Of a stretch of DNA of 64,000 nucleotides, positions 5,614-62,572 are shown piece by piece; positions within the stretch are counted from its first letter, which is position 1; the number at the start of each line of letters is the position of its first letter. A program made the translations under genes and the position numbers. The notes below the pieces were generated by a model. The model saw nothing but the letters and a program-made list of their open reading frames with translations, had not been told where the DNA came from and made no database searches. The stretch lies in contig OZ024744.1 in assembly GCA_964016885.1 (NCBI GenBank), positions 65,906,001 through 65,970,000 of the forward strand, in the 5' to 3' direction. This stretch comes from Eledone cirrhosa (lineage: Eukaryota).

Positions 5614-6154
5614 CTGTATATACTCATATATAAGCTTAGAAATATGTGACAAAAAAAAAAAAAAAAATTGATGGTAAATGAGGGGAGAGGGAGGATCGAC
5701 TTATATTCAAAGTCAATATTTTGCTGATATTTTTTCACCAACTTTAATGCAACTCTATGCAAATGAAGTGCTAAAATATTTTTGCTTTGAAGGTGGAAAT
5801 ATTACACCAGTTTCACTTTCAACATGAAATTCCTCTTTCCTACTGTTTTTGATGTGTTTTGAATGAATATGGCCTTTAAAAATGGTCAGAAATTGGTAAA
5901 ACAAAAAAAAAATCATTACATAATGGAGTTACTACTATACTCTAAACGACACTTACAGTATTTTAAATATCATAACATAAAAACTTCATAAATATATTTT
6001 CCACAGATGAGAATTTCAAAACCACACCACCTAAACATAATGTGTTGATACCCTGCTTCAGCTCATAAATGGCGTTTGGATTTTTTTACTTATTTCTCAG
6101 ACATAAAATAGGGGTCAGCTTATATTTGAATGGACTTATATTCAAGTATATAGG
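5614..6154. mobile_element. Tc1/mariner-pogo type MITE
   Basis: Imperfect TIRs ctgtatatactcatatataag / cttatattcaagtatatagg with TA on both sides. Confidence 0.55.
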
Positions 6155-6239
6155 TAATTATATTTATTATTATAATGGTCCAAAATAATTTTAAATTGTG
6201 TGAAAAGGTACACAAACTCTTACCATGACCCTCATAAAA

Positions 6240-6575
6240 TAATAATGATAAATATTGTGTACAGTGCTCAGGTACACTACAATTCATCAAAGGTGCATGT
6301 ATAGTACATAGAATGATGTACAAATGTGAGGAAAGTAAACAGTGTATGAGTCATGATATATCATGATAGACAGATACATGCGTACACGTGTATGGAGAGG
6401 GAATATAAGGTGTAGTGTTAGCACATTTCAGGAATCATGGAAGTTTTAACGGATGCAGTGTCCTAACAGCTAACAACTGATGTAGGTGGTTTGTTCCATG
6501 CTTCAGCAACTCTGAGCATGAAAAATGTTTCCAAAAGTCATTGGAACTGTACTGTTTTCTGACTTTGTAAGCATG
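6240..6575 (-). mobile_element. CR1-like LINE 3' end
   Basis: Reverse complement of 44020-44770; further copies at 20975-21190 and 22995-23105. Confidence 0.75.
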
Positions 6576-8385: not shown

Positions 8386-8655
8386 GGTGATGTGTTGTTT
8401 TCTTGAGCAAGACACTTTATTTTCACATTGCTCCAGTTTACTCAGCTGTAGAAATGAGATGATAGGGACTGGGTTCCCTATCATTCCACAAGTGGCCGTG
8501 GAGGTGCCACGGCAAAAAAGCACCCAGCACTCACTGTAAATGGAGTTGGTGTTAGGAAGGGCATCCAGCTGTAGAAATCAAGCCAGAATCTGTTCCCGTC
8601 CCACCCTTGCAAGCAGGGAAAAAGGGGACGTAAAATGATGATGAAATGATGATGA
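8385..8655 (+). mobile_element. 5'-truncated SINE with RTE-derived tail
   Basis: Matches 24321-24584; central cttgagcaagacacttt motif; (GAT)n tail. Confidence 0.8.
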
Positions 8656-8669
8656 TATATATATATATA

Positions 8670-8860
8670 AGTTATTCTGGGTTCAATCAGGGGTAACCAC
8701 AGTAAGTAAGGTACTCAATACATAGCAGAGTATAAATGTTTTAATATAGAAAAGCTTCTACAGGACTAGAACTGTTTCATTCGTGAGAAATCATCAGGAA
8801 GCTTCCTGATGATTTCTCACGAATGAAACAGTTCTAATCCTATAGAAGCTTTTCTATATT
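8670..8860. mobile_element. Fold-back element family B
   Basis: Loopless palindrome 8743-8860 centred on AAG|CTT at 8801/8802, 2 mismatches; tail 8670-8742; TA flanks. Confidence 0.85.
8752..8804 (-). ncRNA. Type-I hammerhead ribozyme motif (family B)
   Basis: Minus strand: AAGCTTC-CTGATGA-tTTCtcacGAAt-GAAA-CAGttctagtcCTG-TA|GAAGCTT. Stem I 7 bp, stem III ACAG/CTGT, GUA site. Confidence 0.8.
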
Positions 8861-8864
8861 TAAA

Positions 8865-8916
<52 letters not shown>

Positions 8917-9745: not shown

Positions 9746-10324
9746 CGTTTCTGAATTTGTTTAGCAAGATTCTTTATCTGAAATCGTGTGTTGAAACCGA
9801 TATTGTTATACTTTGGGAGGGTCATGTTGCCAATAAGAAACACACGCACCAGTTGCTTTCACTTCAATTTAATTTATTATATATTTATAAATTTACAAAT
9901 TTATAAATTTCTGGTTGGTTGGTTGGTTCCACAACCAGATAGTTGTTTATATATATATAGTCATAGTTCTTTCGTCACACACTCTGTGACCTCTTCAGTG
10001 ACTGGGGATTTCTTTCTTCGTTTCTGTGCCTTTCCTTTCTTCTATCCTACGCCATTTTTTGGCAAAAAATGGCGTAGGATAGAAGAAAGGAAAGGCACAG
10101 AAACGAAGAAAGAAATCCCCAGTCACTGAAGAGGTCACAGAGTGTGTGACGAAAGAACTATGACTATATATATATAAACAACTATCTGGTTGTGGAACCA
10201 ACCAACCAACCAGAAATTTATAAATTTGTAAATTTATAAATATATAATAAATTAAATTGAAGTGAAAGCAACTGGTGCGTGTGTTTCTTATTGGCAACAT
10301 GACCCTCCCAAAGTATAACAATAT
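9744..10324. mobile_element. Fold-back element family D (262-bp arms)
   Basis: Near-perfect inverted repeat 9800-10061/10063-10324; tail 9744-9799; TA flanks. Confidence 0.9.
10121..10165 (+). ncRNA. Minimal type-I hammerhead motif (family D); mirror copy on minus strand at 9959-10003
   Basis: AGTCA-CTGAAGA-gGTCACAgagtgTGTGAC-GAAA-GaaC-TA|TGACT. Confidence 0.75.
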
Positions 10325-10334
10325 ATATATATAC

Positions 10335-10365
<31 letters not shown>

Positions 10366-10412
10366 ACAATATATATATATATATAACAATATATATATAT
10401 ATATATATATAT

Positions 10413-14175: not shown

Positions 14176-14213
14176 GATATATATATATATACATATATAT
14201 ACATATATATATA

Positions 14214-15903
14214 GGGGTAACTATAGAGGCATTAAATTAATCGACCAGGTCATGAAGGTCACAGAAAAAATAATAGCGCAACTAATCAGAGAACGAATTG
14301 ATCCAGATGAAATGCAGTTCGGGTTTGTGTCAGGTAAAAGTACCGCAGATGCTCTTTTCATTGTACGACAACTACAAGAGAAGTACCTAGCTAAAAGTAA
14401 ACCCTTATACTTAGCTTTTGTTGACTTGGAGAAAGCCTTTGACAGAGTCCCCCGCTCCATTATCTGGTGGGCGCTTAGAAAACTAGGTGTTGATGAATGG
14501 CTTGTGAGAGCTATACAAGCCGTGTATAAAGAAGCAGTCAGCAAGGTTAGAATTAACAACGAATATAGTGAAGAGTTTAGCGTAAAAGTTGGTGTTCATC
14601 AGGGCTCCGTTCTTAGCCCCCTACTATTTATTATTGCCCTTCAGGCTATAACAGAGGAGTTCAAGACCGGTTGCCCATGGGAACTCCTATATGCAGATGA
14701 TCTAACGCTCATAGCTGAATCAATGGCTGAACTAGAGAAGAAATTCCAAACATGGAAGCATGGCCTAGAATCAAAAGGCCTTAAAGTTAACTTGTCTAAG
14801 ACTAAAGTTCTAGTTTGTAGGAAGGAAAATAGGGCACCGGTCCCATCTGGGAAATGGCCATGCTCAGAGTGTAGGAAAGGAGTAGGCAGAAACTCCATTT
14901 TATGTCCCAAATGCAAAGTATGGGTGCATAAAAGATGTAGTGGGATCACAGGTAAGCTAACTAAGAATATAGATTTTATATGTGGCCGGTGCTCTGGTGC
15001 AATAAGTAGCAGCAAGTGCCCACAAAATATTAGCTCATTCCATTGCACAGATGGTACTATAGAAATAGTGGACACCTTCCGTTACCTGGGTGACAAAATC
15101 AACAGTGGGGGAGGGTGCTCTGAAAGTACAGTAGCTAGAGTCAGAACGGGATGGAAAAAGTTCAGAGAGCTTATACCACTATTGGCCGCTAAAGGGTTCT
15201 CTCTAAAAATGAAAGGCAGGCTGTATGATGCCTGCATACGAACAGCAATGTTACATGGCAGTGAGACCTGGGCATTGTGTACAGAGGATCTACGCAGACT
15301 GGAGATGAACGAAGCTTGCATGCTCCGCTGGATGTGTAATAGTAATATACGTGAACGGCAAAGCATAAACGAACTAAGGGAGAAATTAGGGATAAGAGGG
15401 ATCAGATGTTGTTTACTCGAGAGAAGACTTCGTTGGTATGGTCACGTGATGCGCATGAAAGACGACAGCTGTATAAAAAAGTGTAGGGCGATAGAAATAG
15501 ACGGTAGCCACTAAGTATAAAGCAAAACCTACAGTCAGTAGGCACCCCTAACAAAATACACCCTCCCCCCGTCCCACTACCCCCACCCCATCCACACCAC
15601 CCCCTTAAATGTTAAGTTATGTTGGTACCACAACATCCAGTCCAAAACAAATGAGGTCGTGTAGGTGTCACGACAAAAAAACACACAGTCCACGCTGTAA
15701 TATGGCCGTGTAGGTAACACGGTAAAAACCTCCCAGTCCACACTGTAAACGTGGTTGGTGTTAGGAAGGGCATCCAGCCATAGAAAACCCGCCAGACAGT
15801 CCTATACGAGCAGGACAACAAATCTTGCCTCAAGTGGGAAACCTCCCGTCCAAACCCATGCAAGCATGGAAGATGGACGTTAAACGATGATGATGATGAT
15901 GAT
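14214..15903 (+). mobile_element. 5'-truncated RTE LINE with 3'UTR and (GAT)n tail
   Basis: RT ORF plus 3'UTR ending ggacgttaaacgatgatgat; about 135-bp deletion at 15510 relative to the 44847 copy. Confidence 0.92.
14252..15514 (+). pseudogene. Reverse transcriptase (RTE clade) with PHD-like Zn finger, truncated
   Basis: QFGF, FVDLEKAFD, GVHQGSVLSP, LYADD, FRYLG, LRWYGHV motifs. Confidence 0.92.
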
Positions 15904-17248: not shown

Positions 17249-17677
17249 ATAAAATATTTCAAGCAGAGGCATCACTTGATCTAAACAACTTTCATGTGTG
17301 TTGTGTTTTTTTCTTTCACTGCAGCATATGCAGAAAGGAATCTAGAACATAGGGAACTTGGGAATCTACATATATGTATATATAATCTGTGACCATAAGC
17401 TACCACCAGTGACTCTTAGAACTGGCTAGCTTAACAAGTGACCTAATTCACCACATTTCTACAAAACACTTCTTACGTAAATTTGAGAAAAATTTTCCAT
17501 ACCCCAGTACACCTGTACACCCTTTAAAAGGCTTGCTGAATACAACCTGAAACCACTAGGCGCTGTGATCGAGATTTTCCTCTCTCTCGCTCTCTTTCAC
17601 TATCTCTCTCTGTCACTCTACTCCTCTGTCTCTCTCTCTATATTTTATTATTATTATTATTATAATATATATATATA

Positions 17678-17968
17678 TAACAAAAAATAGACATTCGTGT
17701 GATCAAGTATATTTTATTATAAATATTTCAGAGGTACTGAGCTAACTTCAACAGTACGTCCTCATTATCTGATGAGGACGTACTGTTGAAGATAGCTCAG
17801 TACCTTTGAAATATGTATAATAAAATATACTTGATCACACGAATGTCTATTTTATGTTAATATTTTGAATTAATATTAATAACTCCGGAAAACCATTCTG
17901 TTGAGTGCTTCCAATCTATTGTAAAACTCATTCTTTGATTTATTCATTGAACCTTGTTTAACCTTTAA
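17678..17968. mobile_element. Fold-back element family C with plus-strand hammerhead
   Basis: Arms 17678-17765/17772-17859; ttat-CTGATGA(17769)-ggacGTACTG...CAGTACcttt-GAAA-TAtgTA-TA|ATAA; tail to 17968. Confidence 0.82.
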
Positions 17969-19784: not shown

Positions 19785-19925
19785 GAATCCCAGGTTCAGT
19801 CGTGTCTGGCCATGTTTAGTAAGGTACTGAATACATTACTAGAGTGTGAACATCAAGTTTAATATAGAAATGGCTTCTACAGGTCTAGAACTGTTTCATT
19901 CAAAAGAAATCACCAGGAAAGCCCC
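19785..19925 (-). mobile_element. Family B single arm with degenerate hammerhead (CTGGTGA)
   Basis: Minus strand: ggctttc-CTGGTGA-tttcttttgaat-GAAA-cagttctagacctgTA-gaagcc. Confidence 0.7.
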
Positions 19926-24584: not shown

Positions 24585-24699
24585 ATATATACACAAATTA
24601 AAATGAAGAATTAGAAATAGAAGCCAGGACTACTACATCAGTGGTCTACTAACCATCATAGGTATTTCTTCGCATTAAAGATCAGACACCTCAAGCTAG

Positions 24700-27600
24700 C
24701 GCGAACAAAATTTCCAACATACCACCAAATATTAATATTTGGTGGATATTGGCAGGATTTTTAGAGGAGGGACAGGACACCATCCTCTCCATCAAGAAAT
24801 CAACCAGACACATGTGGTCTGGTACAAATTTGGAAATTCTGGTTCAAGTGAGGCCGGAGAGAATCTCCAAAATACCTGAAAAGGTGCTGGTGAACAACAA
24901 CAGCCACATAAACATTTCAGTTGAAGGTGGGAGACCACACTGCTTTCGATGTAATAGTACATCGCATCTAAAGCCCCCCGCCACTGCCCTTTATAGACAC
25001 ACTTTAAAAAAACAACCCACCCCCAAAATACTGTTAACAACACCAACACCAAAACTACCACCACCACCACTACAACAACAGCACCACACAAAACAAGCAA
25101 ACACACCAAAACAAACAGCCACTCAACCAATAACAAGAGAAAGAAACACAGACAACTCCTCTGAAGAACACAGTCCCACCCCATCTCACTCCATCCAACA
25201 CTACCACAAACACACACACAAAAACACCATCACCACACAACATACCCCTACCGCACGCTCCTGATGACGATTCATCGTCAGACGAGGCTACTTCTCCATC
25301 CCCAAGTGAAGATGAAGGAGAGCTTCGGAAATAAAAAAAAACAAAAAAAGAAACACCGTAAAGCCACAAAAACACCAATCACCAACACAAACACACAACC
25401 ACCACACAAACAACAACACAAACAACACCACAATCAAACTTCCCCTTACCAGCTAACAAACACCAACACCACCCCAAACACAAACACACACCATAAATAT
25501 AAAACTCCCAGATGAACAACAAACAAAAACAACAAGAATTTGATGGAGGTCATCTCCCAAAACCCCAAGGTGGAGACCGAGGGTAAAAATTTTGTTAAAG
25601 CAGAATCGTCTCTACACCTCAAACTGATAAGGGTTTCCATGGAAACATATAGTGAACTGAAAAGGGAATTTTCGCAGGAGGTGGGCAACCCTTGTCAAAA
25701 ACCCATAAACTGCGTCCTATTAAAATGTCCCCCCACCCAACATCCCCACCAGCACCCAAATGGAGATTGAACAACCCGATCTCCAGGAAACGAAAAGGTA
25801 AGTGCATCTTTTCGTCAACTCTTCTCAACCAACATGGCTAATTTACGAATTGGAAGTGTGAATGTGCGTGGAGGGCCAACTCTTAAATGACCTTAGGTCA
25901 CACGGTATGGATGTGATAGCCACCACCGAGTCCAGGATCCACAACAGGCAGCAACTAACCCCCATCTTCAATAACTTTGAGATCTACGCATTTCTCTGTC
26001 AGCCATGAGGTGGAGGGGGAGTGGCTGTCATGTTACAGAAAAACCTGGACCTCGAAGTACAGCAAGTACACTTGGACCCGGAGGGTAGACTGGTAGTTCT
26101 AGACGTGAACAGTATTGGAGGTGGAGCCTTCAGACTGGTGGCCGTTTATGCCCCGACGGGGCAATCGCGGCCAGACTTCTTTAAGCGTCTAGAGTCTTTT
26201 CTGGGAACGTCTCGCTCCTTGATTTTAGTGGGGGACTGGAATGGTATCCTAGATGCATGATGGCACTATGTAGGATCATGTTCCAGTAGAGCGAGGTGCA
26301 ACAGCCTCAAAAATTTAATCGGCCAATTCCAACTGGCCGATAGGTATCGACTAGATTTCCCGACTGCACCACAGTGGACGTGGATAAACTGTAGCGGGAC
26401 ATCTAGATCGTATTTAGATAAGTTCTTTATTAGAGAGAAAGACAAGATGCTATTAAGCTGTCCACAAATGCACATGGTTACCTATTCAGACCACAAACTA
26501 GTCATCTGCATAGTCAACCATGATAGAATACATAGATAAGGACCCGGATACTGCAAGCTGAACATGTCGTTACCGACACGTAAAGCCTACAGTGAACGGA
26601 TAAGTAGATTAATTAAGCAACAGTTGACGGGAGCCATCGTCAACAATAGATGGTGGTACTCTCTCAAGAGAGCAATTAGAGTAGAATCGATAGCTTTTAG
26701 CAGAGAACTAGCCTTAGAGAAAAACAAAACAGAAACAGAACTAGTAGCCAAGGTAGAGGAGGGGCTTAGGAGTGGCAACGCAGCTAGGATGCTAGTAACG
26801 AGAACGGCACTGGACCGGTTCTTCGACGCGAAACCCGAAGGCTGCATGGTTAGAAGTAAATCACGTGCTCTAGGAAACGAGGGACCAAAAGCCGTTAGCT
26901 GGGCCCGAGTGGCAGAGGCGAACAGTGGCAACAAGTCCACGATTCGGTCTTTGAAAGACCAAAACGGACGCGTGCTACTTGACTCCAAGCGGATGTGCGC
27001 GACTTTTCAGCGGCACTTTGGTTCATACCTTAACGGCCTGCCGTGTCTCTCGAGCATGGATACCGAGTTCTGCGAAAGACCGATCACAGCCACTGAGATA
27101 CGGGACGCTCTGGGCCACTGCGGGAAACGCAAATCACCCGGTCTAGATGGTCTACCCTATGAGTTTTACATAGGCATGCCGGACTTGTTCTCGGGCGTCC
27201 TCGAAGCCATCTACTGCAACTAGCAGCAGAACTGGAGAATTCCCAGTTCTGCATAGTAACGCTGATCAGTAAAGACGAGAACAAGGGGGGGACAAAAAAA
27301 GCAACTTTAGGCCCATAACTCTGCTCAACACAGAGTTAAAGATTTTGGCCAAGGTGTTAACAACGAGGCTGGCGCTTGTCATCGAGAACCTGGTAGGCAA
27401 AGCGCAAATGTGTGCAATCCTCACCAGGTCCATACACGGCAACCTCCGCCGCATGCGATACATCATAGAGAGGGTGGGGGTGTAAACCTGCCTTTGGTGG
27501 GGCTCTGATCAATTTAGATCAGCCTAAGGCTTTCGATAGGGTCGACCATCGATACTTGGAAGCGGTTCTCGAGGCGGCCGGTTTCGAACCCGTCTTCAGT

Positions 27601-29170
27601 GGCTAGATCGCTGCAATGCACACCAACATCTGCTCGACGGTCAAGGTGAACGGCTACCTATCGGAGCCGTTCGCAATCATGCGTTCCATCCGACCGGGAT
27701 GTCCTCTCTCCTCCATTCTGTACGTGCTGACTCTGGAGCCACTACTGTGGAAGTTGGAGCTGCCGCAGAACATCCCGTTGGAACAGGGACTGCAGAAAGG
27801 TGACAGTAATGGTGTCGGAAATCGGGGCGATCGGCAACTTACTGCAGCAATACGAAAGGCTCGCGGGAGCAAAACTGAACCCGGACAAGTCTGTCGGTTT
27901 GCAACTCGGTACGTGGAGAGGCAAACCGATGCCGTCCGACAGCGTCGCCAGACGCTGGACTGACGGACTGCTGAAATTGCTCGGAGTCTGGTTCGGTCCG
28001 GACCTCCAAGTGGAGAAAAACTGGAACAAGGTCATGGTCAGGGTATTTGTGTTCACCCAGAAGTGGGCAAAGTGCAAACTGTCCTTGAAAGGTCGAGCGG
28101 AGGTGGCGAACACTTTCATAGCGTCCGTCATTTACTACCGCTTGACCGTCGTGCCTTGTCCCCGTGAACACCTCACCAAGATGGAACGCATGCTCTTCCA
28201 GTTCCTTTGGAAGCAGCAGGCTCCACTGGTGAGGAGATCCGTCTGCTGTCAGCACCCTACCAACGGAGGACTTCCACTTCAACATTCTATAGAGGGTTAG
28301 TACGTCATAAGGACGACGACGTGCGGAGAGACTCTAAGTATCGAAGACGACGAACTCACCAGTCTGTTTTGTAGAACTTTCCGCTCGGGACTTATGGACA
28401 ACTTCTAGAGGTCCCTGGCCTGTCAGTGCTACCGAGGAGCTCTACCAGTTCGAGACAAGATCTATAGGCAGGCAAGGACGCCCCGGCAGGGATCCTTCCA
28501 AGAGGACGTGTCCAAGATGCGAGCAGGACATTGAAACCGTCTTGCACACAATCATACACTGCCCGGGCCTAACCGACCTGTGGAACTACGCAAAACAACT
28601 GCTGTCGCGTATGGGACAAATCCAGTTGACATCCGAGTCCATAGTAAGGGTCAAACCGCCAACTTCTTTCAAAAACGAAAGAGAGGCGGTTTTCCTCTGT
28701 ATAGTGGCTATGGTGAAAGAGGTTATATGGTGAAGGAGATTGAGAGGATTGAGGACAGATGCCTTTCTCTCCTGACAACAACTCATTCCCTTCTTTAGGT
28801 TCCACTTTAGAAGGAGAATCAGATTGGAGATAGAGAGACACTGTACCACAGTAAATTTACTGAAAGGTGGGTGAATGTAGCAAAAATGGCCTGAGTGATT
28901 GGGCCTTCTCTGTATATAAACCTGTAGGTTGAAGAAGAGAGCAAAAGGAAGAAAGGAGCACTTGCACAACACGCTCCTGAAGTCGAGGGTTGGGCTATCG
29001 ACGGGGTATTAAACAACCCATTTGTGTGCCCCCCCCCCCCCTATTGGGGATTTCGATTGTTAAATTTGTTTGTTTTAATAATATTTTTACACGACTGTAT
29101 GTAAAATCCTCAGCACGTGTCTTTGTATTGTCCCTTTTTTCTTGTGCGCCCCTGTGGCAAATAAAGAAAT
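24700..29170 (+). mobile_element. Decayed near-full-length Tx1/L1-clade LINE (ORF1 Zn-knuckle; ORF2 APE-RT)
   Basis: ORF1 CFRCNSTSH; ORF2 from ATG 25834 (SVNVRG, VYAP, GDWN, SDH, KSPGLDG, DQxKAFD); many stops and frameshifts; YADD codons deleted near 27799; ends AATAAAGAAA then (TC)n. Confidence 0.9.
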
Positions 29171-34859: not shown

Positions 34860-35018
34860 TTTCGTTTCTGAATTTGTTTAGCAAGATTCTTTATATGAAA
34901 TCGTGTGTTGAAACCGATATTGTTATACTTTGGGAGGGTCATGTTGCCAATAAGAAACACACGCACTGGTGCGTGTGTTTCTTATTGGCAACATGACCCT
35001 CCCAAAGTATAACAATAT
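34860..35018. mobile_element. Family D mini fold-back without hammerhead
   Basis: Arms 34917-34966/34969-35018 plus the same tail as 9744-9799. Confidence 0.85.
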
Positions 35019-35096
35019 ATATATATATATATACATACACATATAAATAAGAGTATATTTATTTTGTGTGTGCAATTACTTGTGTTTTGCAGTCTG

Positions 35097-40759: not shown

Positions 40760-40938
40760 ATAAGGATAAATATATATCAATATATAAGAGCCGTAGAGCA
40801 AATATTTATTAAAATGACAGATTAAAGTTTAAGCAAAGAATTGCTGCTTTCACCCTTAACGGGATCTTCAGAAGATCCCGTTAAGGGTGAAAGCACCGAT
40901 TCTTTGCTTAAACTTTAATCTGTTATTTTAATAAATAT
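40760..40938. mobile_element. Fold-back element family F with hammerhead core at the symmetry centre
   Basis: Arms 40802-40869/40871-40938; minus strand CTGAAGA-tCCCgttaaGGGt-GAAA-GCA...TGC-TT|AAACT; single-arm copy at 39745-39811. Confidence 0.82.
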
Positions 40939-41174
40939 ATATATATATATATAGAACATCTCTCTCTCTATCAAAAATTAAAAATACCAGTAATGTGAGG
41001 TCAGTTCTCCCACATACCAGAGGTTGTGAGAGCTGAGCTGAAATCACTGAGACTCGCAGAGGAGATGACAAAGGAATGCAATGAGTGAAGAGATGCTGTG
41101 CTGAAAAGGACCTATCCAACCCATGCAGGCATGGAAAAACAGAGATAAAAATGATGATGATGTTGATGATATAC

Positions 41175-43944: not shown

Positions 43945-44775
43945 TACATGCAGACATAACAGACATAGGAAAAATCTTCCCTGAGTACCTTTTTGATTTC
44001 CATGTGTCTAACACACGTGGGCATGCCTACAAAGTCAGAAAACGGCACAGCTCCCATAACTTTCGGAAACATTTTTTCACATTCAGAGTTGCTGAAGCAT
44101 GGAACAAACTACCTGCATCAGTTGTTAGCTGTCGAGACACTGCATCCTTTAAAACCTCCATGGAACAAACTACCTGCATCAGTTGTTAGCTGTCGAGACA
44201 CTGCATCCATTAAAACCTCCATGGAACAAACTACCTGCATCAGTTGTTAGCTGTCGAGACACTGCATCCATTAAAACCTCCATGGAACAAACTACCTGCA
44301 TCAGTTGTTAGCTGTCGAGACACTGCATCCTTTAAAACCTCCATGCAACAAACTACCTGTATCAGTTGTTAGCTGTCGAGACACTGCATCCTTTAAAACC
44401 TCCATGGAACAAACTACCTGCATCAGTTGTTAGCTGTCGAGACACTGCATCCTTTAAAACCTCCATGCAACAAACTACCTACATCAGTTGTTAGCTGTCG
44501 AGACACTGCATCCTTTAAAACCTCCATGGAACAAACTACCTGCATCAGTTGTTAGCTGTTGAGACACTGTATCCTTTAAAACCACCATGCTTCCTGAAAT
44601 TCGCCAATACTACACCTGGTATTCCCCCTACATACACATCTACATATGTATATCATGACACATACACTGTTCACTTTCCTGACATTTGTACATTATTCTA
44701 TGTACTATACATACACCTTTGATGAGTTGTAGTGCACCCGAGCACTGTATACAATAATTTCATTATTATTTATTA
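43945..44775 (+). mobile_element. CR1-clade LINE 3' end containing a 61-bp tandem array
   Basis: TRGHAYKV...RKHFFTFRVAEAWNKLPASVV CR1 C-terminus; 8 x 61-bp units at 44098-44590; (ATT)n tail. Confidence 0.88.
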
Positions 44776-44846
44776 TTATTTAATAATATATTACACACAC
44801 ACATACATACATACATACAAACATATATATATATATATATATATAT

Positions 44847-45817
44847 GCAAAGATGGTTCTATAGAAATAGTGGACACCTTCCGTTACCTGGGTGACAAAA
44901 TCAGCAGTGGGGGAGGGTGCTCTGAAAGTACAGTAGCTAGAGTCAGAACAGGATGGAAAAAGTTCAGAGAGCTTATACCACTATTAGCCGCTAAAGGGTT
45001 CTCTCTAAAAATGAAAGGCAGGTTGTATGATGCCTGCATACGAACAGCAATGTTGCATGGCAGTGAGACCTGGGCATTGTGTGCAGAGGATATACGCAGA
45101 CTGGAGAGAAACGAAGCTTGCATGCTCCGCTGGATGTGTAATAGTAATATACGTGAACGGCAAAGCATAAATGAACTAAGGGAGAAATTAGAAATAAGAG
45201 GGATCAGATGTTGTTTACTCGAGAGAAGACTTCGTTGGTATGGTCACGTGATGCGCATGAAAGACGACAGCTGTATAAAAAAGTGCAGGGCAATAAAAAT
45301 AGACGGTAGCCACGGAGTAGGCAGACCCAGAAAAACCTGGGACGAGCTGATAAATTCCGACCTCACACAATTACACCTCTCCAAGACAATGTCACTGGAC
45401 CGAGACCTTTGGCAGTACTCAGTAATAGAGAAGACCCGCCTTACCTAAATACAAAGTAAAACCTACTACAGTCAGTAGGCACCTCTAACAAAATACACCC
45501 CCGTCCCACCACCCCCACCCCATCCACACCACCCCCTCCTATGTAAAGTTATGTTGGTACCACAACATCCAGTCGGAAACAAATGAGGTGTGTAGGTGTC
45601 ACGACAAAAAAACACACAGTCCACGCTGTAATGTGGCCGTGTAGGCAACACGGTAAAAACCTCCCAGTTCCACACTGTAAATGTGGTTGGTGTTAGGAAG
45701 GGCATCCAACTGTAGAAAACCCGCCAGACAGTCCTATGCGAGCAAGACAACCACTCTTGCCTCAAGTGGGAAAACTCCCATCCAAACCCATGCAAGGGTG
45801 GATGATAATGATGATGA
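44847..45817 (+). mobile_element. RTE LINE 3' portion with intact ORF end (stop 45448) and UTR
   Basis: Near-identical to 15045-15900; GRPRKTW motif. Confidence 0.92.
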
Positions 45818-46354: not shown

Positions 46355-46483
46355 GTGTATCCCGGATTCAATCGGGGGTAACCACAGTAAGTAAGGTACT
46401 CAATATATAGCAGAGTATATATTTTTAATATAGAAATGGCTTCTACAGGACTAGAACTGTTGCATTCGAAGGAAATCATCAGA
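46355..46483 (-). mobile_element. Family B single arm with mutated hammerhead (GCAA)
   Basis: Matches 8675-8797; minus strand CTGATGA-tttccttcgaat-GCAA-cagttctagtcctgTA-gaagcc. Confidence 0.75.
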
Positions 46484-48062: not shown

Positions 48063-49538
48063 TTCAAACCAGTGACCTCAAGAGACAACAAGGTCTGCCA
48101 TGTTCAAGAAAGAACATACATACTCACACATGCATCTTTAGGTGTTTAGACTTGTGATGTACTTATATTGACAGAATCTTCCTTAGTATATGGGCAGTTC
48201 CCATTAGAACTATCTTTTGTATTTCTCCTATACGCGGGTTTCCTGGGATTTGCGATAAGTAATCATTAGACCACTTAGGTATCATTCCTAGAGCGCCTAC
48301 AACCACTGGTATTATTTTAGTTCTCAATTTCCACATTTTTCCAATTTCTATCTCCAGGTCCTTATACTTGCTCAATTTTTCAAATGTTTTTATAGATACA
48401 TTCTTGTCTATTGGAACGGACATATCAATTAGCAGGCATACCCTCTTTTTAAAGTCCTTCAATATTATATCAGGTCTATTTGCATCTATTTTTCGGTCTG
48501 TTTGGATGCTAAAGTTCCACAAGATTGAGATGTGATCTTTTTCAAGTATGGGAGGTGGTTGATGCTCCCACCAATTCTTTTGATGGGGCAGATCAAAATG
48601 CTTATACATTATCCAATGTATGTATTGTGCAGCTCTGTCATGCCTGCTTAGGTATTCGGTTGGACCTATAGGACTGCACATTGAAATTATATGATCGATG
48701 GTCTCTGGTTGTTTTTTACACACACGGCATAATGGGTTGCATCCATTTTTTTTATTAAGTTGGCTTGGTAATTTTTTGTTGGCAGACACTGATCTTGTGC
48801 TGATATAATCAGTCCTTCAGTCTCTGATTTCAGTCCAGTGGATGCAAACCACTAATGGGTTAAAGTTTTGTCAACATCAGAATTGTTAGCTCTTTCTGGG
48901 TATTTTCCATACAGAGGCTTTTCTTGCCATTTCTTAGCCAGTTTCTGTAGCAGTTCTTTCTTTGCAGTTACTTTTACCTGCTTTGCCTTTTCTGTGTTTT
49001 CCATTTCAGCAGTAAATTGGACTTCTGAAATTTGTAGTCCATTACTTTATCTTTGTGCATCTTTTGAAATGGAGTATGATCTTTTGATGTTTTCATGTTT
49101 CAAAACGAGTTTGATCATCCAATCATGCGATTCCCTTAGATATGTAGATAATCCAATTGTTGCAATTTTCAAAGCAATATCTAACTGGATTAATCCACGT
49201 CCTCCTTCTTTCCTAGGGAGATATATCCTATCTATATCTGCTTTAGGGTGATGTATTCTGTGCATGGTTAAGAAATTTCTAATTTTTGTATCGAGCCTAC
49301 AGATCTCTGTGCTTGACCAGATGATGACATTGAAACTGTAGGTTTATGGCATCGATCCTATTCTTTGCATTCAATTCCGTTCTTAAGATTGCTCTTACTC
49401 TACGGTAACATTCCTTCCTTATCCTTTCCCTCATGGCTGAGTGCTTGATTCTGTCTCCTTCACAAACACCTAAATATTTGTAAGTTTCCTCTTGATCAAG
49501 TTCTCTTATCACATTCCTCCGATCAAGATTAATGTCTG

Positions 49539-51546: not shown

Positions 51547-51758
51547 ACGAAGGAAATGTGGTAAGGAACCAGATGAACCATAACGCACCAAAGTACTCAA
51601 TACTTAGGGTAATAGAGTGGGTAATAGGAACGAGTAGGACCCCGACGGCTGAGCTCAAGCCGTTTCGACGGCTAATTCTGGACTAAAATCGTCCATTCTT
51701 TTAGTCCAGAATTAGCCGTCGAAACGGCTTGAGCTCAGCCGTCGGGGTCCTACTCGTT
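51547..51758. mobile_element. Family A fold-back with perfect 60-bp arms
   Basis: 51629-51688/51699-51758 with 10-nt loop; tail 51547-51628 homologous to 2451-2528. Confidence 0.85.
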
Positions 51759-51873
51759 ACTATATATATATAGATGGGTAGTGAGATTAATGGATAGAGA
51801 GATAAATAATATACAAATACTTTGCTACCTAGATAGATAGCTAGAAAGACAAAAACAGACATTATATATATAC

Positions 51874-54789: not shown

Positions 54790-57700
54790 AAAAAAAAAAT
54801 TTATATCAGAAGATTTTATGTTTAAACACCTTTACACCTTTTCCCCCACATACATGGAAAAAAGGACCCAGAAAATTAAAATTGCAAATATTACACCAAA
54901 CATAAACGTCTGGTGGATTTTGACTGGCTTCATCGATTTCAATGAAGACACAATAATTTCAGTGGGAAAGTCCTCCAGAGGCACGTTCAATGGTACAAGC
55001 CTGGAAGTTCTGGTCCAAATGAGGCCAGAACAGATAGCTAAAATACCCCAACGTGTGCCTCTGGATGGAATTTCATATATAAACATTTCTGTTGAGGGTA
55101 GGCGGCCTTCATGTTACCACTGTTTAAGCAGTGATCACCTGAAGGCTTACTGTCCTCAGCTAGCCGCAAAAAAAGAGGCACTACTGCCAACACCCAAAAC
55201 AACAACACAACCACCACCACCACAACAACAACAACACAACCAAAACAAGAACAACAAACCAAACACAACCAAAACAAGAACAATAAACCAAACTGAAAGC
55301 ACAGTCCCACCCAACCCCACTCCATCTAAAACCACTGCAAAAACACCCACAAACACAACAGCTCCCCAAAACATACCCCTTCCAAATAACACAGACACCA
55401 CAACGGACGAGGCCCCCTCATCATCACCAAGTGACGATGAGGGAGAGTCTCTCCGTTCGAAAAGAAAGAAGAAAAGACACCACAAGAACAAAAAAGCAAC
55501 AAACATCACTACAAACATACAACCACCAACACAAACATTACAAACAAAAAACCCCCATCCCGAAAACAAAACCACGACATCACTCCAAACACAAACACCT
55601 ACAATAAAACGAAAGCTCACACAAGAACAACAGACAAAAACCAACACAACACAAGAACATTACACATACATAAACAGTGACAACAAAACTTTAATGGAGG
55701 TCATCTCCCACGACCCTTCGGTGAAAACCTAAGGGAAAACTTTTTTGAACTGTGTAGACAAACCTAATTTAAAGATGATTAGGGTCCCTACGGACACCTA
55801 TAAGTCTTTAAAGGAAAACTTTCCTCAGGATGTGGGTAATCATTGTTAAACCCATTAACCGCGTCCTTTTAAAATGTTTCCCCACCCACCCCAGACACCC
55901 CCATCCTACCAGACATCCCCTCCCCACCAAACATCTCGTCCTCACCCCGCCGGAAACCACAGAGTTACAGATTTGGGCCAAGGTGTTGGCAAAGAGGCTA
56001 TGCTTGTCGTCGAAAACCTGGTGGGAGTAGCGCAGACATGCGCAATCCCGACCAGGTCCATACACGACAACCTCCACCTCATGCGATACATCATAGAGAG
56101 GGTAGGGTGTAAACCCGGCTTCGGTGGGGCCCTGATCAACTTGGATCAGTCTAAGGCTTTCGATAGGGTTGACCATCGTTACCTGGATGCGGTGCTCGAG
56201 GCGGCAGGCTTCGGACCCGTGTTCAGGGGCTGGATTGCTGCAATGCACAACAGCAATATCTGCTCAAGGGTCAAGATGAACGGCTACCTCTCGGAGCCGT
56301 TCCATATCACGCGATCCATCCGACAGGAATACCCTCTCTCCTCCCTTCTGTACGTACTGACACTCGAACCACTACTGCGGAAGTTGGAGCTATTGCAGGG
56401 CAACCCTCTAGAACCGGGACTGCAGAAAGCGGCGTCGGCCTATGCCGACGACGTGACAGTAATGGTGTCGAGCACCTCGCAAATCGAGGAAGTTGGCACC
56501 TTACTGAAGGAATACGAAAGGTTCACAGGAGCGAAGCTACACCGGGACAAGTCCGTCCGTTTGCAACTCGGATCGTGGAGAGGCAAACCGATGCCTTCCG
56601 ATGGCGTCGTTGGACGCTGGACGGAAGGACCGGTGAAGCTGCTCAGGGTCTGGTTTGGTCCGGACCTTCAGGTGGAGAAGAACTGGAACGAAGTGACGGC
56701 CAAGGTGTTTGCACTCACCCAGAAGTGGGCCGAGTGCAAACTATCATTGAAAGGTCGAGCGGAGGTGGCGAACACTTTTATAGGGTCCGTCATCTACTAC
56801 CGCTTGACCGCCGTGCCTTGTCCAGCCAAAACGCTCACCAAAATGGAGCGTGCGCTCTTCCAATTCCTTTGGAAGAAAGGGGCTCCTTTGGTGAGAAGAT
56901 CCATCTGCTGCCCTTCAAACGGAGGGCTGGGGATGCCGTGGCTGACGATCCGCAGACATGCGCTCAGGCTGCGGCACATCCACGTATTCCTCACCGGACA
57001 ACCGGTGTGGGTCCCGTTCGTGAGGCGAACCTTCCCACGACTCGTCTCGCTGACCGAGCTGCAGTCCTGGGTCAAGCAAAGACCGGGGAAAATGGGCGAC
57101 TGGCACATCGAATGTACTCAGGCACTCACAGCCCTCTGGCATGCGGACCCGGCGATCAGTGGAGATGCCACTTCGTCATTCTATAGAGGGTTGGTCCGCA
57201 GCAAGTGCGACGACGCGCTCGGAGAAACTCTAGGCGTAGTGGAAGACGAACTGGCCAGTCTGTTCGGTAGGACCTTCCGCCGGGACCGATGGACAACTTC
57301 CAAAAGTCCCTGGCCTGGCAGTGCTACCGAGGAGCTCTACCAGTTCGAGACAAGCTTTACAGACAAGGGCGCCCGGGCATGGACCCTTCGAAAAAGATCT
57401 GTCCGAGATGCGTGCTAGACGAAGAAACCGTCGCGCACGCATTCGTACACTGCCCGGGCGTTACCGACCTGTGGGGCTATGTAGAACGACTATTGTCGCG
57501 GGTGGGACCAATCCGGTTGACCACCGAGTCCATTGTTATGATCAAACCGCCACCCTCCTTCAAAAACGAAGGAGAGGCGGTTTTCCTTTGTGTGATATCT
57601 ATGGCGAAAGAGGTTGTATGGTGGGCGAGGTTCAAAGGGCTGAGGTCAGACACCTTTCTCTCCGGCCAACAACTGATTCGTTTTTTCAAATACCACTTTG

Positions 57701-58056
57701 GAAGAAGAATGAGGATGGAGAGAGAGGTACTGTACCCCAGCAAGTTTTATGAAAGGTGGGGGAAAGTGGCGAGAATGGCCCGAGTGAATGGGCCTTCTCT
57801 CTATATCAGCCTGAGGTTGAAGAAAAAGAGGAAGAGAGGAAGGGGGTACTCACTCTTCGTACTCCTGGAGATGAGGGGGTGCACATTTTTTTTGGGGGGA
57901 ATGTGTTACCCATATGTAATGTCTCCCCCTATTGGGGAAAATCGACTAATTTTTAAATTGCATTTGTGATAGTATTTTACACGTTTTTATTGTATGTAAA
58001 CTTCGCCCTTTGTATTTGTCCCCTTCTTTTGTGCCCCTGTGGCTAATAAAGAAACA
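54790..58056 (+). mobile_element. Tx1/L1-clade LINE lacking the endonuclease region
   Basis: ORF1 CYHCLSSDHLKAYC; ORF1 end joined to mid-RT at about 55957; DQSKAFD, SAYADDV; C-terminal CPRC..H..C; ends AATAAAGAAA. Confidence 0.9.
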
Positions 58057-62164: not shown

Positions 62165-62572
62165 ATATTAAATAAATGGAAACTATATTTATAAAACCAT
62201 ATTTATTCTATTATAGATAAGGGTACCAAAACTTTGGTACGCTCTCATCAGATAAAATACAAAGTTTGTTTTATAAATATTGACATATACAGGAAGAAGA
62301 TCTTAACGGTTCAAGTTTTATCCAGGAAAAACTTGAACCGTTAAGATCTTCTTCCTGTATATGTCAATATTTATAAAACAAACTTTGTATTTTATCTGAT
62401 GAAAGCGTACCAAAGTTTTGGTACCCTTGAAATATATATAATAGAATAAATATAGTTTCCATTTATTTAATATCATTGAATATTATACTCCAGAAAACTT
62501 GTCGAGTGCTTCGAATCAGTTATAAACGTATATATTTGTTGAATTATCAACACATTAAATATCCCTTTTGCT
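62160..62572. mobile_element. Fold-back element (family C-related) with plus-strand hammerhead
   Basis: Arms about 62160-62323/62325-62478; tail to 62572; TA flanks. Confidence 0.85.
62388..62448 (+). ncRNA. Type-I hammerhead motif
   Basis: TATTTTAT-CTGATGA-AAGcGTACCAAAgtTTTGGTACcCTT-GAAA-TAtaTA-TA|ATAGAATA; 8-bp stem I. Confidence 0.8.

What the first reader, a model, noticed from the sequence alone, without database searches (positions are those of the whole stretch)
8670..8860. Family B: complete hammerhead whose stem I contains the fold-back centre
The minus arm folds as a full type-I hammerhead: 7-bp stem I AAGCTTC/GAAGCTT, stem III ACAG/CTGT with a CTAG-containing loop, GUA site at 8759/8758, and an atypical U-U at the base of stem II. 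The palindrome has no loop and turns at the AAGCTT 6-mer in stem I, so each arm supplies the 5' part of the other's stem I. The plus arm has a stem III mutation. Copies at 19785 and 46355 each carry one core mutation.
Basis: partly seen in the sequence, partly recalled or inferred. Interest (0 to 1): 0.72.

Follow-up and report, generated by a model that had tools for sequence, protein, structure and literature searches.

The report
Penelope hairpin stub turning at cap
This small DNA palindrome is one of thousands of short head-to-head stubs left by a Penelope-type jumping gene, and it turns at the front edge of the ribozyme motif likely because that base is the capped start of the element's RNA, where two DNA copies likely ran off and were joined, not because the ribozyme needs the fold-back.

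Summary
The minus arm has a full type I hammerhead motif, the palindrome is loopless, and the listed mutations are real. The interpretation needs correcting. The unit is the 5' leader (pLTR plus tail) of an autonomous Hydra-type Penelope-like element (759-codon RT/GIY-YIG frame; 13,261 exact tail matches). The parent stem I is 6 bp (cAGCTTC/GAAGCT). AAGCTT is made by the junction and occurs in only 5 of the first 50 sister junctions. A sibling subfamily without a self-complementary stem turns at the same place (1,630 loci). Arms stop at the first base of stem I (+1); a TATA box lies at -30/-31; 91 of 100 listed arms ending at +1 carry an untemplated G, often on both arms. The turn therefore likely marks the capped RNA start, with two cDNAs joined head to head. 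Read-through RNA would bury the ribozyme in a ~60-bp hairpin. U10.1-U11.1 is conserved and already known in natural hammerheads. Cleavage is untested, and the in-vivo test was inconclusive. This scan has noted the same cap and twin-priming pattern before, in this genome (fold-backs) and other genomes (cap).

The parts
8670..8803 (-). Long arm: +1 to +134 of the 5' leader (pLTR plus tail) of a Hydra-type Penelope-like element; +1 (8803) is the predicted transcription start
   Evidence: about 90% identical to the leader in front of the 759-codon frame in L121/L122
8753..8803 (-). Type I hammerhead motif: 6-bp stem I, core CUGAUGA/GAAA/GUA, U10.1-U11.1 plus 3-bp stem II, 4-bp stem III with palindromic CUAG loop (predicted dimer)
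8758..8759 (-). Predicted cleavage site GUA|G (after A8759); not tested
   Evidence: hammerhead consensus as given in PMC3088659 (passage)
8800..8803 (.). Head-to-head junction: 4-nt AGCT overlap shared by both arms; each arm begins at +1
8800..8860 (+). Short inverted arm, +1 to about +61; hammerhead broken by G>A at 8842, loop change at 8837
   Evidence: sister short arms end at +60 to +67 in 49 of 56
8670..8742 (-). Tail, present only on the long arm; in the parent it runs on toward the ORF
8656..8669 (.). (TA)7 left flank (target microsatellite)
   Evidence: 87 of 99 unbiased copies end in a TA repeat
8861..8909 (.). A-run plus (TA)n right flank
19785..19921 (-). Diverged solo copy (GAAGCCA subfamily), core A6>G, no inverted arm
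46355..46482 (-). Solo copy (GAAGCCA subfamily) starting at C3 behind (CT)n, core A13>C, no inverted arm

Best explanation
The element is a short, asymmetric head-to-head insertion of the 5' leader of a Hydra-type Penelope-like retrotransposon in a (TA)n tract, and its centre likely marks the capped first base of the element's RNA, where two reverse transcripts likely ended and were joined. Shown: parentage; copy number; arms stop at +1/+2; extra G; TATA at -30/-31; outer ends at +131-134 and +60-67. Inferred: Pol II starts at the A of cAG(C/A)TT, the first base of stem I. The GIY-YIG domain nicks both strands of (TA)n. Each 3' end primes RT at an internal site of the same, mostly uncut RNA (about +134 and about +60-67). 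Both copies run to the cap and are end-joined through 0-4 nt of microhomology or a short templated insert. Here both ends read ...GGAAGCT-3', so AGCT anneals and gives the loopless AAGCTT. In this stub the ribozyme is a passenger; in the parent it is predicted to work, if at all, as a weak dimer that would remove the capped first 45 nt.
For: Parent: same leader in sense in front of and behind the RT/GIY-YIG frame in L121-L127. Unbiased set (first 100 tail matches, 99 loci): 56 compact fold-backs, 19 long copies, 24 without an inverted arm; the inner-most arm end is -2..+3 in 33 of 56, -2..+10 in 47 of 56, and upstream of -2 in 0 of 56. TATAAAT(A/G) at -30 or -31 in 76 of 92 arms with such a box within 45 nt, in two subfamilies with different spacer sequence. 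Stem I pairing stops at +1. Base after an arm ending at +1, non-templated cases only: C (= G on the RNA strand) 91, A 7, T 2 of the first 100 of 642 rows (counted by eye; p about 2e-33 against 1/3). Both arms carry it in 22 of the 76 loci listed. Extra G is the accepted cap signature for L1/SVA (passages, PMC4859970; PMC11702581). The short arm reaches further 5' than the long arm in 29 of 56 and the reverse in 11 of 56, which snap-back of the long arm cannot give. Arms share loop II in 50 of 50 listed loci although TAAA arms outnumber TAAT arms, and rare A>G changes are mirrored in L300 and L304. PAc protein nicks and extends both strands, starts internally and uses uncut RNA (PMC11167929, parts 1-2 of 4).
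Against: No RNA data show the start or a cap. The commonest junctions (GAATC, GAATCTC, ATTC) also fit a 3-4-nt hairpin snap-back, and loops between inverted repeats can be flipped later (own knowledge), which weakens the orientation argument. In the AGATTC subfamily the first extra base C could be copied from the stem I 3' strand; against this, only 10 of 91 continue CAT and none CATCT. In the AGCT subfamily most C cases are ambiguous with +6 of the other arm. A few arms run upstream of +1 (-3, -6), and 19 of 99 copies come from longer RNA. Matching arms could also reflect one active source locus rather than one RNA molecule. The mirrored rare variants are few (0 in 21 TAAA loci).
Confidence: 0.72

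Rival explanations
1. Same parent and same RNA start, but one cDNA snaps back on its own 3' end at +1 and is extended on itself (self-priming hairpin), then joins the second target end at a TA-like word near +60.
For: The commonest junctions fit 3-4-nt hairpin loops; arms carry the same variants; self-priming was proposed for PLE palindromes (PMC3846280 passage, there on an antisense template).
Against: It predicts the extra 5' bases and cap G on the long arm only. The short arm reaches further in 29 of 56, and both arms carry the extra G in 22 of 76 listed loci. The loopless AG|CT centre cannot be a hairpin. The extra G points to a capped sense template, not an antisense one.
Confidence: 0.2
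2. One reading: a functional fold-back ribozyme unit whose turn is set by the AAGCTT 6-mer, with each arm completing the other's stem I.
For: True letter for letter in this copy; core, U-U and stem I are conserved, with one compensatory pair.
Against: Exact AAGCTT in 5 of 50 sister junctions; 1,630 loci of a subfamily lacking the palindrome turn in the same place; parent stem I is complete without the fold-back; read-through RNA forms a -98/-104 kcal/mol hairpin; junctions vary from copy to copy, so they are not inherited from a master fold-back.
Confidence: 0.04
3. The stub ends are set by ribozyme cleavage.
For: A modest excess of junctions near the cut: about 80 at +46 and about 61 at +45, against about 30 at +48 (160x15/30, 107x17/30, 75x8/20).
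Against: The main pile-up is at +1, 45 nt upstream of the cut (thousands of loci); both arms span the cut site intact. About 5 of the 15 junctions at +46 are explained by stem I microhomology, and +45 is nearly as frequent as +46.
Confidence: 0.04

Closest known systems
Hydra-clade EN+ Penelope-like elements (Craig et al. 2021, PMC8557442; passages; supplement search)
   Same: C-terminal GIY-YIG, RW(K/R) motif, DKT, CxCX5C linker, CxxC and CxH around the EN, hammerhead in the pLTR, (TA)n target, adjacent inverted 5'-truncated copy and one-sided tail.
   Different: Tail here is about 70 nt (30-40 bp in the paper); the unit is longer than 3 kb because of a simple-repeat-rich 3' region; the motif is RWR rather than RWK; no tree was built. 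The passages read do not map a start site or cap.
Adineta vaga Pen2a/Pen2/Pen3a with palindromes at the inverted junction (PMC3846280; passages)
   Same: Head-to-head inverted pLTR with a palindromic junction, TATA and Inr-like motifs in the pLTR.
   Different: The paper favours self-priming on an antisense template; the extra G on both arms here points to capped sense RNA copied twice.
PAc (Poseidon, Anolis) in vitro system (PMC11167929; parts 1-2 of 4)
   Same: Both strands nicked and extended, two internal RT start sites defining the tail, uncut RNA the main template, weak protein-assisted hammerhead.
   Different: In PAc the ORF starts inside the ribozyme; here the first ATG of the long frame is about 180 nt after +1 and the ribozyme is at the predicted RNA 5' tip.
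Minimal PLE hammerheads (PMC4209133, parts 1-2 of 4) and U10.1-U11.1 hammerheads (PMC3088659 passage)
   Same: Type I, palindromic loop 3 with predicted dimer (cofold -25.2 kcal/mol against about -7.7 per monomer); opposite-strand pairs in truncated PLEs; the U-U pair is already described in natural hammerheads.
   Different: Stem II is short (3 bp), lacks G10.1-C11.1 and the extra base after A9; stem III has 4 bp with an 8-nt loop.
L1 twin priming and cap-derived G (PMC11702581 and PMC4859970; passages)
   Same: Second target end primes a second cDNA; the two are end-joined with microhomology; extra G at full-length 5' ends.
   Different: In L1 the two cDNAs cover adjacent parts of the RNA; here both cover the same 5' tip, giving a palindrome.

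Membership tests
EN+ Penelope-like element | Single ORF with RT and C-terminal GIY-YIG linked to this repeat | tested here: met
   759-codon frame with YRDD (392), IVYKC/YIG (631/648) directly behind the leader in L121, L122; recognised by motif, Pfam gave no hit at its cut-offs
EN+ Penelope-like element | pLTR in direct repeat around the ORF, adjacent inverted copy, one-sided tail | tested here: met
   L121, L123, L124, L127; 56 of 99 copies with an adjacent inverted arm
Hydra clade | RWK motif | tested here: inconclusive
   RIRWR at 81: R in place of K
Hydra clade | DKT in place of DKG; CxCX5C linker; CxxC and CxH flanking EN E/N | tested here: met
   DKT 161, CNCLNKEAC 612, CDLC 712, CMH 740
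Hydra clade | (TA)n insertion | tested here: met
   87 of 99
Hydra clade | Placement in an RT phylogeny | not tested
   No reference Hydra proteins were fetched
Type I hammerhead ribozyme | Core C3-A9, G12-A14, A15.1-U16.1, H17 with three stems | tested here: met
   66 of 89 unfolded arms have an intact core
Type I hammerhead ribozyme | Canonical pair at 10.1-11.1 | tested here: not met
   U-U in 86 of 89; a tolerated natural variant per PMC3088659; Rfam models do not hit
Type I hammerhead ribozyme | Self-cleavage after GUA | not testable with these tools
   The genomic proxy was inconclusive
Non-LTR retrozyme | Head-to-tail tandem units, each with a hammerhead | tested here: not met
   Copies are dispersed, head-to-head or solo, and belong to a coding element; definition from bioRxiv 10.64898/2026.07.22.740005, part 1 of 5

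The most novel reading that the evidence does not exclude
Penelope inverted ends are fossils of double reverse transcription: one capped sense RNA whose very first base is the first base of hammerhead stem I is copied from both nicked target strands to the cap, and the two cDNAs are end-joined. Thousands of junctions then map the transcription start to the base, overturn the antisense self-priming proposal, and recast the hammerhead as a cap-proximal switch that would decap its own mRNA.
Probability: 0.55. Interest if true: 0.58.

Novelty: new member of a known kind. Interest (0 to 1): 0.36.

Why it matters
As an object it is ordinary: a stub of a known kind of retroelement with a known kind of ribozyme motif. 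Its value lies in the sister junctions. How PLEs form inverted repeats, and what their hammerhead does, are stated as open in PMC8557442 and PMC3846280 (passages). Here a TATA/Inr spacing, a hard stop at +1 and an extra G on both arms give a base-level, testable model: capped sense template, two primers, end-joining. My paper searches listed no paper that states this for PLEs; subscription papers are largely missing, and one PLE-hammerhead paper I asked for was not held. This scan has noted the same pattern in other genomes.

Tried and rejected
Rfam over the whole window (top 150 of 300 rows shown, nearly all microRNA-like hairpin noise) and on 8735-8812: no hammerhead hit. Pfam on two parent frames: only a weak zinc-finger hit below cut-off. 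The repeat finder was swamped by (TA)n. First genome search included the turn and so favoured perfect junctions; counts rest on the tail-word set and the junction patterns, which by design see only junctions that keep both cores. First arm-end script over-extended into TA (false -17 to -25 starts, false +73 ends) and was rerun stricter. In one search, 18 of 99 junctions had no subfamily label and are not in the per-family tallies; only 57 ungapped arm pairs were compared. No RNA holder listed; laying four contig runs showed family pieces but no piece spanning the locus, used as no evidence. In-vivo cleavage test at +45/+46/+48: inconclusive; +47 was not counted. Rejected: assembly artefact (asymmetric arms, two arm differences, varied junctions in thousands of loci); retrozyme; miRNA hairpin; a role for AAGCTT as a determinant; a separate non-autonomous family.

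Full report
Observation. The sequence is as described. The palindrome turns between 8801 and 8802 without a loop; the arms match for about 60 bp except at 8837 and 8842. The minus arm has every hammerhead core base, a GUA site at 8759/8758, a 3-bp stem II on a U-U pair and a 4-bp stem III with a CTAG loop. The two other window copies each have one core change and no inverted arm. The monomer fold is no better than shuffles (z -0.31) and Rfam does not call it, so the case for a real motif rests on family conservation.

What it belongs to. The window lies in a 3.0-Gb genome. A 25-nt tail word matches 13,261 times, control 0. A copy joined to a GIY-YIG fragment (L057) led to full elements. There the same leader stands in sense before and after a 759-codon RT/GIY-YIG frame, often with inverted copies beside it. 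The protein has DKT, CxCX5C, CxxC and CxH as described for the Hydra clade, with RWR for RWK (PMC8557442 passages); no tree was built. Family B is thus the 5' leader (pLTR plus tail) of a coding Penelope-like element, inserted in (TA)n (87 of 99). Inverted 5' copies, palindromic junctions, one-sided tails and pLTR hammerheads are all in print (PMC8557442, PMC3846280, PMC4209133).

The ribozyme motif. I number +1 as the A of cAG(C/A)TTC. In 89 unfolded arms with their promoter (deduplicated by flanks), the core is intact in 66, U14-U25 (10.1-11.1) is present in 86, loop II varies, and stem I pair +3/+49 is A-T in 56 and C-G in 28. That is one compensatory event between two subfamilies, not many. 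The pair outside +1 is a mismatch in 87 of 89, so stem I has 6 bp and starts at +1. A U10.1-U11.1 pair is reported in natural hammerheads (PMC3088659 passage). Two leaders co-fold at -25.2 kcal/mol through the palindromic stem III, as expected for dimer-type PLE hammerheads. In the folded copy, RNA of either strand forms a -98 to -104 kcal/mol hairpin, against -7.5 for the hammerhead.

The turn is not set by AAGCTT. Among TCAC-loop junctions that keep both cores (233 loci), 5 of the first 50 listed have the exact loopless AAGCTT; 2 more have the analogous GGAGCTCC. The AGATTC subfamily cannot self-anneal at the stem, yet turns in the same place: 1,630 TAAA loci and about 900 TAAT loci, with varied short loops. 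In the unbiased set, 56 of 99 copies are compact fold-backs; their inner-most end lies at -2..+3 in 33, at -2..+10 in 47 and never upstream of -2. Short arms end outward at +60 to +67 in 49 of 56, long arms mostly at +131 to +134.

Why +1. TATAAAT(A/G) lies at -30 or -31 in 76 of 92 arms that have such a box within 45 nt, in two subfamilies with different spacers. YCA(+1)GMTT resembles an initiator (consensus recalled, from no call). The template has C at -1, yet arms ending at +1 are followed by an untemplated base that reads G on the RNA strand in 8 of 10 gap junctions of fetched AGATTC loci and in 91 of the first 100 of 642 pattern rows (counted by eye; the pattern excludes the templated base). 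It is on both arms in 22 of the 76 loci listed, 16 of them as GGAATCTC-A/T-GAGATTCC. An extra G is the known trace of a copied cap in L1 and SVA. Copying from the stem I 3' strand could give the same first base, but only 10 of 91 continue CAT and none CATCT. In the AGCT subfamily of this locus the signal is mostly ambiguous. No RNA data were available.

Mechanism. Inferred: both strands of (TA)n are nicked; each end primes RT at an internal site near the RNA's 5' tip; both copies run to the cap and are end-joined. PAc protein nicks and extends both strands, starts internally and uses uncut RNA in vitro (PMC11167929, parts 1-2 of 4). Here both cDNA ends read GGAAGCT-3', so AGCT anneals and AAGCTT appears. 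For two cDNAs rather than one snap-back: the short arm reaches further 5' in 29 of 56 against 11, both arms carry the extra G, and a loopless centre cannot be a hairpin. Against: the commonest junctions also fit 3-4-nt hairpin loops, and loops may flip later. Arms nearly always share loop II (50 of 50 listed) and a few rare A>G changes are mirrored (L300, L304), which suggests one RNA or one source locus.

Does the ribozyme cut in vivo? Junction starts are estimated at about 61 (+45), 80 (+46) and 30 (+48) from whole counts times sampled junction shares. About a third of the +46 cases are stem I microhomology. This is a weak excess, not a sharp step; nearly all templates were uncut.

Verdict. 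A real feature and a new member of a known kind. The junction spectrum gives a testable model for an open step in PLE replication. My searches listed no paper stating it; bioRxiv supplements are closed and most subscription papers are missing. Earlier notes of this scan report the same fold-backs in this genome and the same cap and twin-priming reading in other genomes. One of them named the RNA start before I noted the TATA spacing; the cap notes came after my own tests. They are unchecked and are not counted as support.

Noticed in passing
window 17667-17870, 40800-40940, 51616-51771, 62202-62445, 9749-10375, 34904-35031, 13397/13547: Other asymmetric fold-backs or opposite-strand pairs in (TA)n from several unrelated repeat families, most with CTGA-GA or GAAA hammerhead-like cores; some turn at the core's 5' edge, others 60-110 nt upstream.
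   Followed up: partly
window 40800-40940 and many loci (e.g. L017, L025, L197): This family normally reads CAGAAGA at the hammerhead-core position; the canonical CTGAAGA arises only at the fold-back junction, so a core call there would be a junction artefact.
   Followed up: partly
L121 5754-5620 (minus), L122 2305-2440: The parent leader holds three very short upstream ORFs, two of them 5' of the predicted cut, and in the AGATTC subfamily the long frame is open for 45 codons from the cut site to the first ATG.
   Followed up: no
junction lists: Inserts between the arms are mostly short re-copies of +6..+13 (TCAG, ATCAG, CTGA), like templated insertions of polymerase-theta end joining (resemblance recalled).
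   Followed up: no
L121 about 6384-6452 and L250: Rare units join arms of different subfamilies (AGCT with AGAT), which needs two different RNAs or two events.
   Followed up: no
L300, L304: A>G changes mirrored in both arms, possibly A-to-I editing of the template RNA; three changes in two loci only.
   Followed up: partly
window about 8400-8655: A very common SINE-like repeat ending in (GAT)n lies directly left of the TA flank; also seen beside other copies (L069, L090).
   Followed up: no
window 14177-15514, 44726-45448, 48163-48816, 54791-57969, 24662-28733: Fragments of LINE-type RT frames of other families; labels from recall of motifs, not searched.
   Followed up: no
L127 about 5900-6300: A long unrelated palindrome is nested in the simple-repeat-rich 3' region of a parent copy.
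   Followed up: no
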